Below, one piece after another: positions 16,249 through 29,019 of a stretch of 64,000 nucleotides of DNA. Position numbers and translations under genes: made by a program. Numbering within the stretch: position 1 is the first letter of the stretch; each line of letters opens with the position of its first letter. The DNA is from Corallococcus sp. AS-1-12. Its GTDB lineage: Bacteria > Myxococcota > Myxococcia > Myxococcales > Myxococcaceae. The notes beneath the pieces were generated by a model. It saw nothing but the letters and a program-made list of their open reading frames with translations, did no database searches and was not told the DNA's origin. Where the stretch lies: assembly GCF_020036995.1 (NCBI RefSeq), contig NZ_JAIQDD010000010.1, positions 161,433 to 225,432 on the forward strand, written 5' to 3'.

Positions 16249-16908
16249 ATGTCGCTCGCGGTCTACGGTCACTATTTCTCTTCGTACACGCAGAAGGTGC
16301 TCATCGCGCTGTATGAGAACGGAACACCCTTCGAGTTTCGAAGCATCAGCCCGGAGACGCCGGAGCACTCAGCCGAGTGGCTGCGCCGCTGGCCGCTGCG
16401 CAAGTTCCCGCTGCTGGTGGACGGTGACCGTCAGGTCGTCGAGACGAGCATCATCATCGAGTACCTGCAGCTCAAGCATCCCGGGCCGGTGCGCCTGCTG
16501 CCCGAGGATCCGATGGCCGCGCTGGACGTGCGGTTCCTCGACCGGTTCTTCGACCTGCACGTCATGAACGCGGCCCAGCACGCCGTGGACGGGGCGTTGA
16601 CGGGGGACCCGGTGAAGCGCCAGGACGGGATGAAGCTGGCGGTGGAGAAGCTGGAGCGCGCCTACGGCTGGATTGAAGGGCAGTTGGGTGGCCGGATCTG
16701 GGCGGCGGGCAACGACTTCACACTGGCGGACTGTGCGGCGGCACCGTCGCTGTTCTACGCGGACTGGACGCACCGGATTCCCGAGTCGTGTCCCCAACTG
16801 CGCGCCTATCGTGCGAGGTTGCTCGCGCGTCCGTCCGTGGCCCGCGCGGTGGACGGGGGCCGGCCGTATCGGCATCTCTTCCCGCTGGGAGCGCCGGACC
16901 GCGATTGA
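16249..16908 (+). CDS. Glutathione S-transferase
   Basis: MSLAVYGHYFSSYTQKVLIALYENGTPFEF... N-terminal thioredoxin-like domain plus C-terminal helical domain, 219 aa. Confidence 0.85.
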   Translation: MSLAVYGHYFSSYTQKVLIALYENGTPFEFRSISPETPEHSAEWLRRWPLRKFPLLVDGDRQVVETSIIIEYLQLKHPGPVRLLPEDPMAALDVRFLDRFFDLHVMNAAQHAVDGALTGDPVKRQDGMKLAVEKLERAYGWIEGQLGGRIWAAGNDFTLADCAAAPSLFYADWTHRIPESCPQLRAYRARLLARPSVARAVDGGRPYRHLFPLGAPDRD

Positions 16909-16915
16909 GCGAGGC

Positions 16916-26700: not shown

Positions 26701-28914
26701 GGCGAAAGACTGGAGCTGCTGGGGCGTCCAGCGCGTGACGTCGACTTCCAGGCGGGAGGCCACGTCGGCCGCGAACCGGCGAGCCTGCGCCAGGATTCGA
26801 GCAGCGGCCTCCACCGCTTCATGCGCGCGCGTCAGTGTCACGAGCGTGGTGTCAGGCGAGAGCAGACGCAGGGCCATGTCGAGGACGGCTTCCGCGCCGC
26901 GCAGCGCGGACGCGGTCAGGTCTTCCTGGGCACGCCAGCCTGCCTCCAACCCCGCCCACCGGGCCTGGACCGCTTCAATGGCATCAAGCAGGGCTCGTAA
27001 TCCCTCTCTCTGCGTGGAATCGAGCAGGGCAGGGACCAGCGTCGCGGGAGTCCCTTCTGGAAGCCGTGGCAGGACTCGGACGTTGGAGATCAGCGCATCC
27101 ACCGCGAGTGCGCTCGAGCTGGGCGTGACGCCCGTGCGGACGGTGAAGGCCGCCAGCGCCTTCTCCAGGAGCAGCGCGGACTCCTCCCAGGTGGCGATAC
27201 GCTGAACGAGTGTCTGACGGTCCTTGTCGGTCAGCGCATCGTTCGTCACACCCGCCCAGGGGTGGGCACTGAGGATGGGCGCGACGCGGCGAACATCCCC
27301 AAGCTGCGCCGCGAGACTCCGAACCGCGTCGCGAACCTCCGATAGCGCATGGGTAGACATGCCTTCGGCGCCCTCGAAGCGGAGGCCTTCCAGCTCCACG
27401 ACCGCGTCTCCCAGTTCCGATTCCGCGCGACTGACCTTCCAGAACACGTCATGCGGTGACATGCCGAGTGTCCCGAACGGCTTGTGCATTCGCTCGGTAT
27501 GCGCGCGCAGGATGCCCGCCGCGTTCGAGACCTGTTCGGTGAGCGGGCGGGGAGCGGTCGCGCTCGCATCCAGGTTGAGTCGGCGACGCAGGTCCTCCAT
27601 GAACTGCTGTTTCTGGGTCTTGTGGCTGTGCAACTCCAGGCAGAACTCGCCGAGCCCCGCATGCTGGAGGCGGCGTGAGACGACCTCCAACGCCGCCAAC
27701 TTCTGCGTGACGAACAGCACGGTCTTGCCCGCCGCCAACGCCGCGCCAATGAGGTTGGTGATGGTCTGTGATTTCCCGGTGCCGGGCGGCCCTTGCACCA
27801 CCAGATTCTCGCCCCGGAGCACGTCCACCAACACGCTGTGCTGGCTGCTGTCCGCGTCCGTGATGAGTGGCGGCGGATTGACCTCTTGCGAGTCCAAATC
27901 GTAGACCTCGCTCCGGCGCTCCCGGCTGCCCCCGCCACCTCCGCCAGGTTCGTTCGCCTCCGCCTGTCCTCCCATCAGCGTCCGGACGAGCGGGTTCGCC
28001 AGCATGGGACTGTTCTGAGGCCAGCGGCTGGGCTCCAGGTCCCGCCACATCAGGAGCCGCCCGAAGGACAGGAGCGTCAGGGTCACCTGCCGCTCCAGGC
28101 TCCAGCCAGGGCGCAGGCCTTTGAGCAGCGCCGTCACCTTGTCGAAGTACGCCTCCAGGCCCTCCTCCGCGGAGAAGGCCGGCAGCGTGATGCCGAACTC
28201 CTGCCGCAGCTTCTCCTGGAGCGTGAGGTTCGAGTCGATGGACTCGCCTTCATTGTAGTCCACCTCGTAGGAGTGGACCTGCGTCTCCGGGTGGGCCTGG
28301 CCGCGTTTGAGACTCACCGGCATGAGCACGAGTGGAGCGCTGCGAGGCTTCTCCTGCCGCGTGTCGCCGGACTCGTACCAGCGCAGGAACCCGAAGACGA
28401 AGTGGAGCAGATTGGCCCCGGTCTCCTGGATGGCCGTTTGCGCGAGGCCCTGGAGTCGGTGCAGGTGGCTCTCCAGATCTTCCGGGAAGTACAACGTCTG
28501 GAGGTGGCGGTCCTGGTGCTTGCGAGGATTGCTGCCGCTCTCTGCCGGGACCGCCTTGGGCAGCTCATACCGGGTATCGATGCCGAGCTTCTTCGCCTGT
28601 TGAAGCAGCAACTTCTGCCGGGCGTCCTTGCTTGGGGCCTCCTCCGTCGTCATCGAAAACACCACCGTCGCGGCGGCGGGATCGAAGTCCTCCTCTTCCT
28701 CGGAGGCTTGCTCCGGTGGCATCACTGGAAGGAACGTGAGCGCGCGGTGGTTGCTCAGGCGCTCGAAGACGACACCTGGCAGTTCATCCACAATGCGCAG
28801 CGACGTCCGGGCCGTGTGCTTGAAGTTGAGGAGTCGGTTGGTTGCGCTCAAATCCAGCAACCGGGTGCGTTGCCGCTGAAGCTCTTTCAGCAGGACCGAG
28901 TCGTGCGGATTCAT
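23716..28914 (-). CDS. Giant DUF4011 / Upf1-like SF1 helicase (AAA_11+AAA_12) / Vsr-like (DUF559, PD-(D/E)xK) endonuclease / DUF3320 protein (Hhe-like)
   Basis: Start at the internal ATG ([12 protein letters not shown]...). Walker A [10 protein letters not shown], DEAD-like [33 protein letters not shown], and C-terminal [45 protein letters not shown] (Vsr/DUF559 signature). 1733 aa. Confidence 0.8.
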   Translation of the reverse strand: [1732 protein letters not shown]

Positions 28915-29019
28915 GGAGGTGCCCCCCGGGTCGTCATGGGTGGGACGACCTGGCACCCAGGTTCTGGCGCACTCTTCGCCGCGGTTGCATCCCCCGTGCG
29001 GGTGATTGACACCCGCACG

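What the first reader, a model, noticed from the sequence alone, without database searches (positions are those of the whole stretch)
16900..29000. Lower-GC block consistent with horizontally acquired island
By eye, the sequence from the serine hydrolase through the defence operon is several percent lower in GC than the ~68-70% of flanking genes, with A/T-rich runs. It contains accessory-type functions: pentapeptide protein, lipoprotein paralogue B, SIR2, T5orf172 and helicase-nuclease genes. No integrase, tRNA or direct repeats mark the borders, so the insertion mechanism is unclear.
Basis: seen in the sequence. Interest (0 to 1): 0.5.

Follow-up and report, generated by a model that had tools for sequence, protein, structure and literature searches.

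The report
Integrase-less defence-gene hotspot in Corallococcus
The low-GC block is real: it is a 13.4-kb accessory segment in a Corallococcus chromosome, sitting between two conserved genes at a site where related species carry different anti-phage genes or nothing, which is an ordinary kind of defence island, though it includes one undescribed SIR2–lipoprotein gene pair.

Summary
Confirmed. Window 16900-29000 is 64.1% GC against 71.0% for the rest. All eight genes in the segment have lower GC3 than the 34 outside genes (Mann-Whitney p=2e-6). Tetranucleotide distance peaks at z=9.6.

Thirteen Corallococcus species and about 65 other myxobacterial loci fix the true limits at 15654-29007. The right limit lies directly after the ABC-F terminator. 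The left limit is about 20 nt upstream of a conserved lipoprotein gene. C. llansteffanensis has an empty site of 112 nt. Other species carry Shedu, Tiamat plus a NERD helicase, PD-Lambda-1 plus DUF3800, an ATPase-methyltransferase, a GGDEF protein or IS66 at the same site.

The window's cargo is a mosaic of modules:
- HxlR+GST
- serine hydrolase
- pentapeptide protein + C2 lipoprotein B + membrane-anchored SIR2 (GC3 0.69-0.70)
- PD-Lambda-1 + Hhe-like helicase-nuclease (GC3 0.81)

There is no integrase, tRNA or border repeat. Turnover is best explained by recombination in the conserved flanks plus deletions. Three conspecific strains share the island, with mosaic tracts of perfect identity.

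This is a new member of a known kind: a core-gene-flanked defence hotspot. The SIR2-TM + Cys-rich C2 lipoprotein pair recurs in three unrelated metagenomic contexts and is a candidate undescribed defence module.

The parts
15654..29007 (.). Whole variable (accessory) segment of the hotspot, 13,354 bp
   Evidence: blastn breakpoints against 13 Corallococcus loci: left 15642-15656, right 28987-29021. The L006 empty site joins window 15653 to 29008 (alignments).
29089..30687 (-). ABC-F ATPase, the conserved right flank (core gene, GC3 0.95)
   Evidence: Pfam ABC_tran x2 + ABC_tran_Xtn. Present at 74-100% aa identity in 80 myxobacterial loci.
29013..29065 (-). Intrinsic terminator of ABC-F; homology between species breaks immediately after its T-tract
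   Evidence: RNA fold -37.4 kcal/mol, z=-5.1, followed by UUUU. Invariant in 10 species, with divergence directly after it.
28988..29012 (-). 25-nt conserved motif just inside the right border, shared upstream of different first cargo genes (Hhe, Tiamat)
   Evidence: Single copy in the window, 0 expected by chance. Found at the same position in L001, L003, L008, L009, L081 and L082 (alignment).
23716..28914 (-). Hhe-like helicase-nuclease (DUF4011 + SF1 helicase AAA_11/AAA_12 + MTES_1575/Vsr-like REase), 1732 aa, GC3 0.80
   Evidence: Pfam. PADLOC PDC-S37 E=0 (1265 bits) and Hhe 5e-285. Start position taken from the L081 gene call and the sequence.
22137..23702 (-). PD-Lambda-1 (N-terminal TM, coiled coil, DUF4041, T5orf172/GIY-YIG-like), 521 aa, GC3 0.81
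   Evidence: PADLOC PD-Lambda-1 E=2.7e-153. Pfam DUF4041, T5orf172, MUG113.
20370..22097 (-). Membrane-anchored SIR2 protein, 575 aa, GC3 0.69: cytoplasmic SIR2_2 domain (1-316; TTNFD and HLHG motifs), low-complexity linker, one TM (~391-409), conserved C-terminal domain (445-575)
   Evidence: Pfam SIR2_2. AF2 model. Foldseek top hits are antiphage SIR2 NADases. TM and C-terminal domain are conserved in the family.
19704..20363 (-). Lipoprotein B, 219 aa, GC3 0.69: lipobox, 10-Cys N-terminal module, C2-fold domain; 6 nt downstream of SIR2
   Evidence: Alignment with invariant Cys and Asp residues. C2 fold with TM 0.7 to cPLA2 and perforin C2 domains. Weak Pfam C2. Paired with SIR2-TM in L083/84, L085, L087, L082, L100 and L023.
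18679..19716 (+). Pentapeptide-repeat protein ORF (345 aa; the true start may be 18731), GC3 0.70, convergent with lipoprotein B
   Evidence: Pfam Pentapeptide 3.8e-18. Frameshifted in strain L081. 376-aa orthologue in C. exiguus.
18647..18728 (.). Junction where C. exiguus has 2.6 kb more (486-aa unknown protein + Ser/Thr kinase): a probable deletion scar
   Evidence: blastn of window against L100. The same gene pair is present in L002, L082 and L100.
16916..18694 (-). Secreted serine hydrolase (beta-lactamase family), 592-aa ORF, GC3 0.86
   Evidence: Pfam Beta-lactamase 1.6e-28. Present in the hotspot in L002, L007, L004 and L100 at 87-92% nt identity.
16249..16908 (+). Glutathione S-transferase, GC3 0.87
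   Evidence: Pfam GST_N and GST_C families. Also in L082 and L100; absent from L002, L007 and L008.
15658..16164 (-). HxlR-type regulator, divergent from GST, GC3 0.93
   Evidence: Pfam HxlR. GC3.
15014..15634 (-). Lipoprotein A (C2-domain paralogue of B, 37% id), the conserved left flank within Corallococcus, native GC3 0.92
   Evidence: BLASTP 5e-52 to lipoprotein B. Pfam C2 22.4 bits against a cutoff of 22. Syntenic in L002, L006-L009, L011, L012, L082 and L100.
13364..14425 (+). BrkB/YihY-family membrane protein, the deep conserved left flank; adjoins ABC-F directly in Archangium, Cystobacter and Vitiosangium
   Evidence: Pfam Virul_fac_BrkB 8e-69. Synteny.

Best explanation
The block is the cargo of a chromosomal gene-flux hotspot (a defence island) in Corallococcus. 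The hotspot lies in the intergenic space between the ABC-F ATPase terminator and a conserved lipoprotein/BrkB gene cluster.

**Cargo in this genome.** It is a mosaic.
- A co-directional, tightly packed array next to ABC-F: an Hhe-like helicase-nuclease, then PD-Lambda-1, then a membrane-anchored SIR2, then a C2 lipoprotein. The first two are experimentally validated anti-phage families. The SIR2 protein is a predicted NAD+-degrading effector of the abortive-infection type.
- Then a pentapeptide protein, a serine hydrolase and a GST/HxlR pair.

**Mobility.** The segment has no mobility genes of its own. Cargo is gained, swapped and lost in three ways: homologous recombination in the conserved flanks and between shared modules after DNA uptake from related myxobacteria, internal deletions, and occasional IS insertions.

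**What is shown:** the composition anomaly, the exact limits, the empty and alternative-cargo alleles, the module mosaic, the family assignments, and the mosaic identity tracts among conspecific strains.

**What is inferred:** that flank recombination is the transfer route, that the genes are active in defence in this host, and that SIR2 acts as an NADase.
For: **Composition:**

**Limits and empty site.** L006 has 112 nt between ABC-F and lipoprotein A.

**Alternative cargo at the identical site**:
- L004: Shedu SduA, E=1.6e-132.
- L009: Tiamat TmtA, E=1e-109, plus a NERD-UvrD helicase.
- L002: PD-Lambda-1 plus DUF3800/PDC-M04A.
- L007: AAA_21 ATPase-methyltransferase.
- L011: GGDEF protein in a variable segment of 58% GC.
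- L010: IS66.

**Outgroups.** In Archangium, Cystobacter and Vitiosangium, ABC-F directly abuts BrkB.

**GC of the variable segment** in other Corallococcus species is 0.58-0.68 against flanks of 0.69-0.72.

**Family assignments:**. Published activity of Hhe and PD-Lambda-1.

**Module distributions:**

**No mobility marks:** no tRNA, repeats or integrase.

**Signs of recombination.**
- Identical runs of 2060 and 2788 nt lie at different places in two conspecific comparisons against a background of 0.9% divergence. Fewer than 1e-5 such runs are expected.
- A 105-nt junction patch is identical to another species but not to the conspecific strains.

**Precedent:** integrase-less hotspots with flank recombination (PMC5635113) and core defence hotspots with low GC (PMC10250203).
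Against: - Recombination at the flanks is not demonstrated by a formal test. The clustering of differences at the right junction is largely a hypervariable 25-nt spacer.
- Hhe/PD-Lambda-1 divergence tracks species divergence. Much of the present pattern could therefore come from differential loss out of one large ancestral island, rather than from repeated gain.
- The low GC3 of SIR2 and lipoprotein B is stable across orthologues of 46-68% identity. A simple 'recent import, not yet ameliorated' model does not predict this.
- Only one genome per species was sampled, plus three strains of the window's own species, all of which carry the island. No within-species presence/absence polymorphism was seen.
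- No phage-resistance data exist for any of these genes in myxobacteria.
Confidence: 0.8

Rival explanations
1. A single, classical genomic island (integrative element, degraded prophage or ICE) inserted once, recently, into this genome by site-specific recombination.
For: Atypical GC and accessory functions. PD-Lambda-1 relatives occur on viral contigs at 47-60% identity. One relative, L010, has an IS66 at the junction. A MAG contig, L086, links a PD-Lambda-1/SIR2 fragment to a Rep3 replication initiator.
Against: There is no integrase, tRNA or direct repeats. The eight genes fill the segment. The modules have different species distributions and different GC3. Hhe+PD-Lambda-1 sit at the same site in at least seven Corallococcus lineages, with divergence proportional to species distance. 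L086 may be a chimeric assembly: GC drops from 66% to 42-57% where homology ends.
Confidence: 0.05
2. One large ancestral Corallococcus island, vertically inherited and shaped mainly by lineage-specific deletion. On this view it is not an active site of gene gain. The window simply retains most of the island, and low GC reflects gene-specific compositional equilibrium.
For: C. exiguus L100 carries a superset array: Hhe, PD-Lambda-1, SIR2, lipoprotein, pentapeptide, 486-aa protein, kinase, hydrolase, GST, HxlR. The window differs from it by a 2.6-kb deletion. Cargo identity tracks flank identity. GC3 of each module is stable across species.
Against: Shedu, Tiamat+NERD helicase, DUF3800, Kelch/Big_7, ATPase-methyltransferase, GGDEF and radical-SAM genes at the same site in other species are unrelated to that array and must have been gained. 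Hhe alleles fall into two classes, about 85% and about 72% nt identity. SIR2+lipoprotein homologues exist in unrelated metagenomic contexts.
Confidence: 0.12
3. Not horizontally acquired at all: a native region whose low GC3 comes from weak expression or relaxed codon selection.
For: The low GC3 persists in diverged orthologues. The three conspecific strains all carry the region.
Against: The site is empty in L006. The genes are absent from this site in Myxococcus, Pyxidicoccus, Archangium and Cystobacter. Unrelated cargo occupies the same site elsewhere. Tetranucleotide z reaches 9.6.
Confidence: 0.03

Closest known systems
Core defence hotspots (cDHS1/cDHS2) of Pseudomonas aeruginosa (Johnson et al. 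2023, PMC10250203)
   Same: A fixed chromosomal position marked by conserved core genes. Highly variable size and content between genomes. Rich in anti-phage systems. GC lower than the genome (58.9 vs 65.3% there; 64 vs 71% here). Not obviously any one mobile element. Flank-mediated recombination proposed as the transfer route.
   Different: A different phylum and different flanking genes (ABC-F terminator | lipoprotein/BrkB). Much smaller: 0.1 to more than 10 kb here against a median of 26 kb there. Documented here between species of a genus rather than among more than 1600 isolates of one species. It also contains non-defence cargo (hydrolase, GST/HxlR).
Integrase-less HGT hotspots flanked by recombining core genes (Oliveira et al. 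2017, PMC5635113)
   Same: No integrase, tRNA or MGE genes. High turnover between conserved core genes. Adjacent to a polysaccharide/rml-type locus, as with the E. coli rfb hotspot.
   Different: An excess of recombination in the flanks was not formally tested here. Only mosaic identity tracts were seen.
Hhe (Gao et al. 2020) / PADLOC candidate PDC-S37
   Same: A single large protein with DUF4011, an SF1 helicase and a C-terminal Vsr-like/MTES_1575 nuclease. Very strong HMM matches. E. coli Hhe protects against lambda, T3, T7 and PhiV-1 and needs the nuclease residue.
   Different: It scores better on the PDC-S37 model than on Hhe. 1732 aa against a profile of about 1900. Untested in myxobacteria.
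PD-Lambda-1 (Vassallo et al. 2022, PMC9519451)
   Same: A membrane-anchored coiled-coil protein with DUF4041 and a C-terminal T5orf172 DNA-binding/cleavage domain. HMM E=1e-153. Validated in E. coli and S. thermophilus.
   Different: Here it is embedded in a four-gene co-directional array. Activity can differ between 98.5%-identical alleles, so function here is not guaranteed.
Antiphage SIR2 NADase effectors (ThsA, DSR1/DSR2, SIR2-HerA, SPARSA SIR2-APAZ, KomC, Avs5)
   Same: The SIR2 fold, with the TTN(F/Y)D and HLHG catalytic motifs. All top structural matches are defence SIR2s. The closest sequence relatives of the SIR2 domain are SIR2-NB-ARC/STAND proteins.
   Different: No SLOG, HerA, pAgo/APAZ, STAND or DSR C-terminal sensor. 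Instead it has a single TM helix, a conserved ~130-aa extracytoplasmic domain and an obligatory downstream Cys-rich C2-domain lipoprotein. No PADLOC model matches better than 1e-8. No paper in the library describes such a pair.

Membership tests
Classical site-specific genomic island / integrative element | Encodes an integrase or recombinase | tested here: not met
   All eight genes are identified and none is a recombinase. Non-coding gaps are at most 90 nt.
Classical site-specific genomic island / integrative element | Inserted at a tRNA/tmRNA gene and bounded by direct repeats (att) | tested here: not met
   ARAGORN finds 0 tRNAs in 64 kb. There are no border repeats above chance.
Classical site-specific genomic island / integrative element | Atypical composition and variable presence among relatives | tested here: met
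   composition; presence/absence.
Core-gene-flanked defence hotspot (cDHS-like) | Same conserved flanking genes in all genomes | tested here: met
   ABC-F and BrkB flank the site in Corallococcus, Myxococcus, Pyxidicoccus, Archangium, Cystobacter and Vitiosangium. Lipoprotein A is an additional flank within Corallococcus.
Core-gene-flanked defence hotspot (cDHS-like) | Different cargo in different genomes, including empty sites | tested here: met
   From 112 nt (L006) to more than 10 kb. At least eight distinct cargo sets.
Core-gene-flanked defence hotspot (cDHS-like) | Cargo enriched in anti-phage systems | tested here: met
   PADLOC hits: Hhe/PDC-S37, PD-Lambda-1, Shedu, Tiamat, RTasNERD-Hel-like helicase, PDC-M04A, AriA/PtuA-like ATPase.
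Core-gene-flanked defence hotspot (cDHS-like) | Elevated homologous recombination in flanking core genes | tested here: inconclusive
   Mosaic identical tracts and a junction patch. No formal test was possible with three strains.
Hhe | DUF4011 + SF1 helicase + C-terminal Vsr-like nuclease in one polypeptide; match to the family HMM | tested here: met
   Pfam DUF4011 4e-34, AAA_11, AAA_12, MTES_1575 4e-37. PADLOC Hhe 5e-285; PDC-S37 E=0.
Hhe | Confers phage resistance dependent on the nuclease residue | not testable with these tools
   Published only for E. coli.
PD-Lambda-1 | Membrane anchor + coiled coil/DUF4041 + T5orf172 domain; match to the family HMM | tested here: met
   N-terminal hydrophobic segment TTIIAIGLGILGLLLLGLWL in the translation. 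Pfam. PADLOC 2.7e-153.
Known SIR2 defence systems (Thoeris, DSR, SIR2-HerA, SPARSA, Avs5, Kongming) | SIR2 NADase domain with catalytic Asn/His motifs | tested here: met
   TTNFD and HLHG are invariant in the family alignment. Fold matches.
Known SIR2 defence systems (Thoeris, DSR, SIR2-HerA, SPARSA, Avs5, Kongming) | The system-specific partner or sensor (ThsB TIR, SLOG, HerA, pAgo/APAZ, STAND NTPase, KomA/B, DSR C-terminal domain) | tested here: not met
   None is present in the protein or in neighbouring genes. The protein instead has a TM helix and an extracytoplasmic domain plus a lipoprotein partner.
C2 domain (lipoproteins A and B) | C2 beta-sandwich fold with acidic loop residues | tested here: met
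   Foldseek hits to C2 domains of cPLA2, perforin and E-Syt, TM 0.6-0.7, prob 1.0. Invariant Asp cluster. Pfam C2: 22.4 bits against a cutoff of 22 for A; E=0.056 for B.

The most novel reading that the evidence does not exclude
The membrane-anchored SIR2 protein and the Cys-rich C2-domain lipoprotein encoded 6 nt downstream form an undescribed two-gene defence system that senses events at the cell envelope. The SIR2 protein has a cytoplasmic NADase domain, one TM helix and a conserved extracytoplasmic domain. In this reading, the lipoprotein and the extracytoplasmic domain detect a periplasmic or outer-membrane cue, such as phage adsorption or injection, or attack by a competitor. They then switch on NAD+ depletion across the inner membrane.

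Support:
- The pair is conserved, at 32-47% (SIR2) and 37-53% (lipoprotein) identity, in four independent genomic contexts. It always sits next to defence-type genes: PD-Lambda-1/Hhe in Corallococcus, and an HSDR_N nuclease-domain protein in two metagenomic contigs.
- A variant lacking the extracytoplasmic domain also lacks the lipoprotein.
- No existing PADLOC model or paper in the library describes it.
Probability: 0.3. Interest if true: 0.7.

Novelty: new member of a known kind. Interest (0 to 1): 0.35.

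Why it matters
Little in the searched literature addresses defence islands in myxobacteria; the searches turned up one CBASS/CRISPR defence locus in Myxococcus xanthus (PMC11506125) and a CRISPR-spacer survey of myxobacterial viruses, but nothing on this site. A fixed, easily recognised hotspot gives a practical place to mine new immune genes in this clade. Its landmarks are the ABC-F terminator on one side and the lipoprotein/BrkB genes on the other. It also adds a delta-proteobacterial example to the still unexplained class of integrase-less, core-flanked defence hotspots.

The stable low GC3 of modules that have diverged to 46-68% identity inside 70%-GC genomes cautions against reading low GC as recent arrival.

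The SIR2-TM + C2-lipoprotein pair would be of wider interest if validated. It would be a SIR2 effector controlled from outside the cytoplasm, and a rare bacterial use of a C2 domain.

Tried and rejected
- **Border repeats and inverted repeats** across 15.5-31.5 kb: only chance-level matches.
- **tRNA/tmRNA scan:** none found.
- **Sigma-70 promoter scan:** 0 hits. The terminator scan was at chance and missed the ABC-F terminator because of a bulge, so I folded it directly.
- **Exact-protein look-ups** for ABC-F, lipoprotein A, P0007 and P0008 returned nothing. This is probably down to different start calls.
- **Viral-contig scan with the SIR2 family:** only N-terminal-domain relatives at 27-36% identity, and no full-length SIR2-TM. 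PD-Lambda-1 had two viral relatives, which I did not pursue.
- **L086** links PD-Lambda-1/SIR2 DNA to a Rep3 initiator. I considered it as evidence for a plasmid vector but set it aside as a possible MAG chimera.
- **The apparent 5-7% divergence at 29000-29250** between conspecific strains looked like a recombination breakpoint. It is mostly a hypervariable 25-nt spacer.
- **Several ORFs in the first automatic gene list** are shadow frames typical of 70% GC DNA (for example 27793-30702+ and 61161-63389-). I did not treat them as genes.
- **The C-terminal domain of the SIR2 protein** was not searched separately by fold, because only the full-length model was available.

Full report
**Observation.** The window averages 69.7% GC.
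1-kb bins fall to 58.9% at 21-22 kb.
- The DNA is high-GC and full of shadow ORFs, so I called genes by the GC3>GC1>GC2 signature and checked them against an independent annotation of a 99.1%-identical genome.
- The 34 genes outside the segment have GC3 0.925 ± 0.050.
- Inside the segment, GC3 is 0.93 for HxlR (corrected start), 0.87 for GST, 0.86 for the serine hydrolase, 0.70 for the pentapeptide protein, 0.69 for lipoprotein B, 0.69 for SIR2, 0.81 for PD-Lambda-1 and 0.80 for Hhe. The Mann-Whitney test gives p=2e-6.
- A synonymous-codon score ranks the genes the same way.
- Tetranucleotide distance from the rest of the window reaches z=9.6 at 20-23 kb.
- ABC-F (29089-30687) has low overall GC but GC3 0.95, so it is native.
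- There is no tRNA in the 64 kb and there are no border repeats above chance.

The sharp compositional step is at about 18.65 kb, not 16.9 kb.

**What the genes are**. The minus strand carries a tight array.
- Hhe-like protein, 23716-28914: DUF4011 + AAA_11/AAA_12 SF1 helicase + MTES_1575 nuclease. PADLOC gives PDC-S37 E=0 and Hhe 5e-285.
- PD-Lambda-1, 22137-23702, 14 nt further on: TM, coiled coil, DUF4041, T5orf172. PADLOC gives 2.7e-153.
- A SIR2_2 protein, 20370-22097, 39 nt further on.
- A 219-aa lipoprotein, 19704-20363, 6 nt further on.

A pentapeptide-repeat ORF (18679-19716, plus strand) converges on this array. To its left lie a secreted beta-lactamase-family serine hydrolase (16916-18694, minus strand), a GST (16249-16908, plus strand) and a divergent HxlR regulator (15658-16164, minus strand).

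Hhe and PD-Lambda-1 are experimentally validated anti-phage families.

**Comparative limits.**
- A scan of one genome per species with ABC-F returned 80 myxobacterial loci. The best, C. coralloides KYC2213, is 99.1% identical to the window over 21.6 kb.
- tblastn and blastn of the window against these loci show that in Archangium, Cystobacter and Vitiosangium ABC-F is followed at once by the BrkB-family gene (window 13364-14425) and the rml genes.
- In Corallococcus, a lipoprotein gene (A, 15014-15634) and a 161-aa gene were added next to brkB.
- In C. llansteffanensis (L006), only 112 nt separate ABC-F from lipoprotein A.
- Homology of all cargo-lacking species with the window stops at 28987-29021 on the right and 15642-15656 on the left.
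- On the right, the break falls immediately after the ABC-F intrinsic terminator (-37.4 kcal/mol, z=-5.1, then UUUU).
- On the left, only about 20-25 nt upstream of the lipoprotein A start codon are conserved.

The accessory segment is therefore 15654-29007 (13,354 bp).

**The site is a hotspot**.

| Locus | Species | Cargo at the same site |
|---|---|---|
| L004 | C. exercitus AB043A | Shedu |
| L009 | Corallococcus sp. CA053C | Tiamat TmtA + NERD/UvrD helicase |
| L002 | C. exercitus SDU142 | a different PD-Lambda-1 allele + DUF3800/PDC-M04A + unknown protein + Ser/Thr kinase + the serine hydrolase |
| L007 | C. carmarthensis | Kelch/Big_7 protein + AAA_21 ATPase-methyltransferase + the hydrolase |
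| L011 | C. terminator | 776-aa GGDEF protein (variable segment 58% GC) |
| L010 | C. sicarius | IS66 + alpha/beta hydrolase inserted exactly at the junction, ahead of Hhe and PD-Lambda-1 |

Myxococcus and Pyxidicoccus carry large CHB_HEX_C_1/Fn3_assoc repeat proteins of native GC at this position instead. In the Corallococcus loci the variable part is 58-68% GC against 69-72% in the flank.

**Mosaic structure**.
- Module D (22165-29007, PD-Lambda-1 + Hhe) is present in interemptor, sp. RDP092CA and exiguus at 82-88% nt identity. It is present in sicarius, praedator and MAG PMG_225 at 72-80%.
- Module C (18647-22164, pentapeptide + lipoprotein B + SIR2) occurs in coralloides, exiguus, interemptor (without the pentapeptide gene) and, distantly, praedator.
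- Module B (the hydrolase) occurs in exercitus, carmarthensis and exiguus.
- Module A (HxlR+GST) occurs in interemptor and exiguus but not in exercitus, carmarthensis or RDP092CA.
- C. exiguus has the fullest array. It shows that the window lacks a 2.6-kb pair (486-aa protein + kinase) at 18647-18728, a probable deletion scar where the hydrolase and pentapeptide ORFs now overlap.
- Divergence of Hhe and PD-Lambda-1 follows the divergence of the flanks but is several-fold larger. These two genes are therefore long-standing residents, not a recent insertion.

**Within the species.**
- Three strains (the window, KYC2213 and CP102579) share the whole island at about 99% identity.
- Differences are very unevenly spread. 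There is a 2060-nt identical run (20368-22427) against CP102579 and a 2788-nt run (21755-24542) against KYC2213, on a background of 0.9% divergence. Fewer than 1e-5 such runs are expected.
- A 105-nt patch at the right junction is identical to C. interemptor AB047A but not to the conspecific strains.
- These are signatures of homologous exchange within the locus, though not a formal test.
- In CP102579 the pentapeptide gene is split by a 1-nt indel.

**Mechanism.** There is no recombinase, tRNA or att. The flanks are conserved, an empty allele exists, modules are shared and shuffled, and identity is mosaic. The best explanation is the integrase-less hotspot model: double homologous recombination in the flanking core genes or between shared modules, plus deletion and occasional IS insertion (PMC5635113; PMC10250203). 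A 25-nt motif (28988-29012) lies just inside the border. It is conserved upstream of both Hhe and Tiamat and may be a shared promoter or recombination arm. I did not resolve which.

**A caution on composition.** GC3 of SIR2 and lipoprotein B is 0.68-0.73 in orthologues that share only 46-68% of residues. GC3 of Hhe is 0.80-0.86 throughout. Metagenomic homologues of the SIR2 pair lie in contigs of 62-66% GC. Either alleles are repeatedly re-imported from a lower-GC pool, or these genes have their own compositional equilibrium. This remains unexplained.

**The SIR2-lipoprotein pair.**
- The SIR2 protein has the TTNFD and HLHG motifs, which are invariant in its family. It has a confident SIR2 fold, and every top PDB match is an antiphage NADase: SPARSA, KomC, DSR2, SIR2-HerA, ThsA, Avs5.
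- A Pro/Ser-rich linker follows, then one strong TM helix preceded by Lys/Arg, then a conserved, confidently modelled 130-aa C-terminal domain. The basic residues ahead of the TM helix suggest that this domain is extracytoplasmic; that placement is an inference.
- Lipoprotein B has a lipobox, ten invariant Cys and a C2-fold domain with an invariant Asp cluster.
- Full-length SIR2-TM homologues were followed by a lipoprotein B homologue in every context examined. These were Corallococcus and three metagenomic contig types (L083/84; L085; L087). In two of the metagenomic types an HSDR_N nuclease-domain gene lies upstream.
- The lipoprotein family is broader, with 974 clusters at E≤1e-3. Lipoprotein A, the hotspot's left flank, is a 37% paralogue without a SIR2 partner.
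- No PADLOC model matches the SIR2 protein better than 1e-8. No paper in the library describes such a pair.
- It is a reasonable candidate for a new envelope-coupled SIR2 defence module, but this is inference from gene context only.

**Verdict.** In kind it is a core-gene-flanked, integrase-less defence hotspot. This category is known, so I rate it as a new member of a known kind and of moderate interest. The SIR2-TM + C2 lipoprotein pair is a lead worth following.

Noticed in passing
window 33380-34899: A second, smaller variable spot. The genes at 33259-34281(+) and 34253-34852(-) are missing or replaced in L006, L007, L009, L010 and L011, while both sides remain syntenic.
   Followed up: no
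window 36227-36586 and 38900-40480: Internal repeated DNA inside two large minus-strand ORFs (35816-37570 and 37574-40873). It appears as multiple offset blastn hits at 64-81% identity in every Corallococcus locus. These are probably repeat-domain proteins.
   Followed up: no
L086 (MAG contig SECC01000016.1, 7.6 kb) 1-2062 and 4724-5944: The first 2 kb is 90.5% identical in DNA to the C. praedator PD-Lambda-1 3' end plus the SIR2 5' two-thirds. The contig then switches to 42-57% GC DNA encoding a Rep3 plasmid initiator and a SocA_Panacea protein. It is either a plasmid that captured part of the array or a chimeric assembly.
   Followed up: partly
window 19144 (pentapeptide ORF 18679-19716): A 1-nt indel relative to strain CP102579 splits the pentapeptide gene into 144-aa and 159-aa ORFs in that strain. 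This suggests the gene is dispensable or decaying.
   Followed up: partly
window 18647-18728: The hydrolase and pentapeptide ORFs overlap divergently at 18679-18694. C. exiguus, C. exercitus and C. interemptor have a 486-aa unknown protein plus a Ser/Thr kinase here. The window appears to carry a 2.6-kb deletion.
   Followed up: yes
window 19704-22097 and orthologues in L082, L023, L100: GC3 of SIR2 and lipoprotein B stays at 0.68-0.73 in orthologues only 46-68% identical, inside genomes with GC3 of about 0.93. The composition anomaly persists instead of being ameliorated. Unexplained.
   Followed up: partly
L081 = CP102579.1 (GCA_042231085.1): This complete genome is 99.1% identical to the window and to C. 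coralloides KYC2213 across 21.7 kb. Its proteins are nevertheless labelled Corallococcus interemptor in NCBI, whereas strain C. interemptor AB047A is only about 90% identical here. The species label is probably inconsistent.
   Followed up: no
L013-L021 (Myxococcus/Pyxidicoccus), 11.6-20 kb of each locus: At the equivalent ABC-F|brkB site, these genera carry one to three very large secreted repeat proteins (CHB_HEX_C_1 x9-12, Fn3_assoc, Big_3_2) with native GC. The same intergenic site is thus used for different accessory content in sister genera.
   Followed up: partly
window 14480-14965 (-): The 161-aa gene between lipoprotein A and brkB is specific to Corallococcus at this site. It gives a weak sub-threshold Pfam hit to Cytochrome_P460 (21.2 bits against a cutoff of 27).
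   Followed up: no
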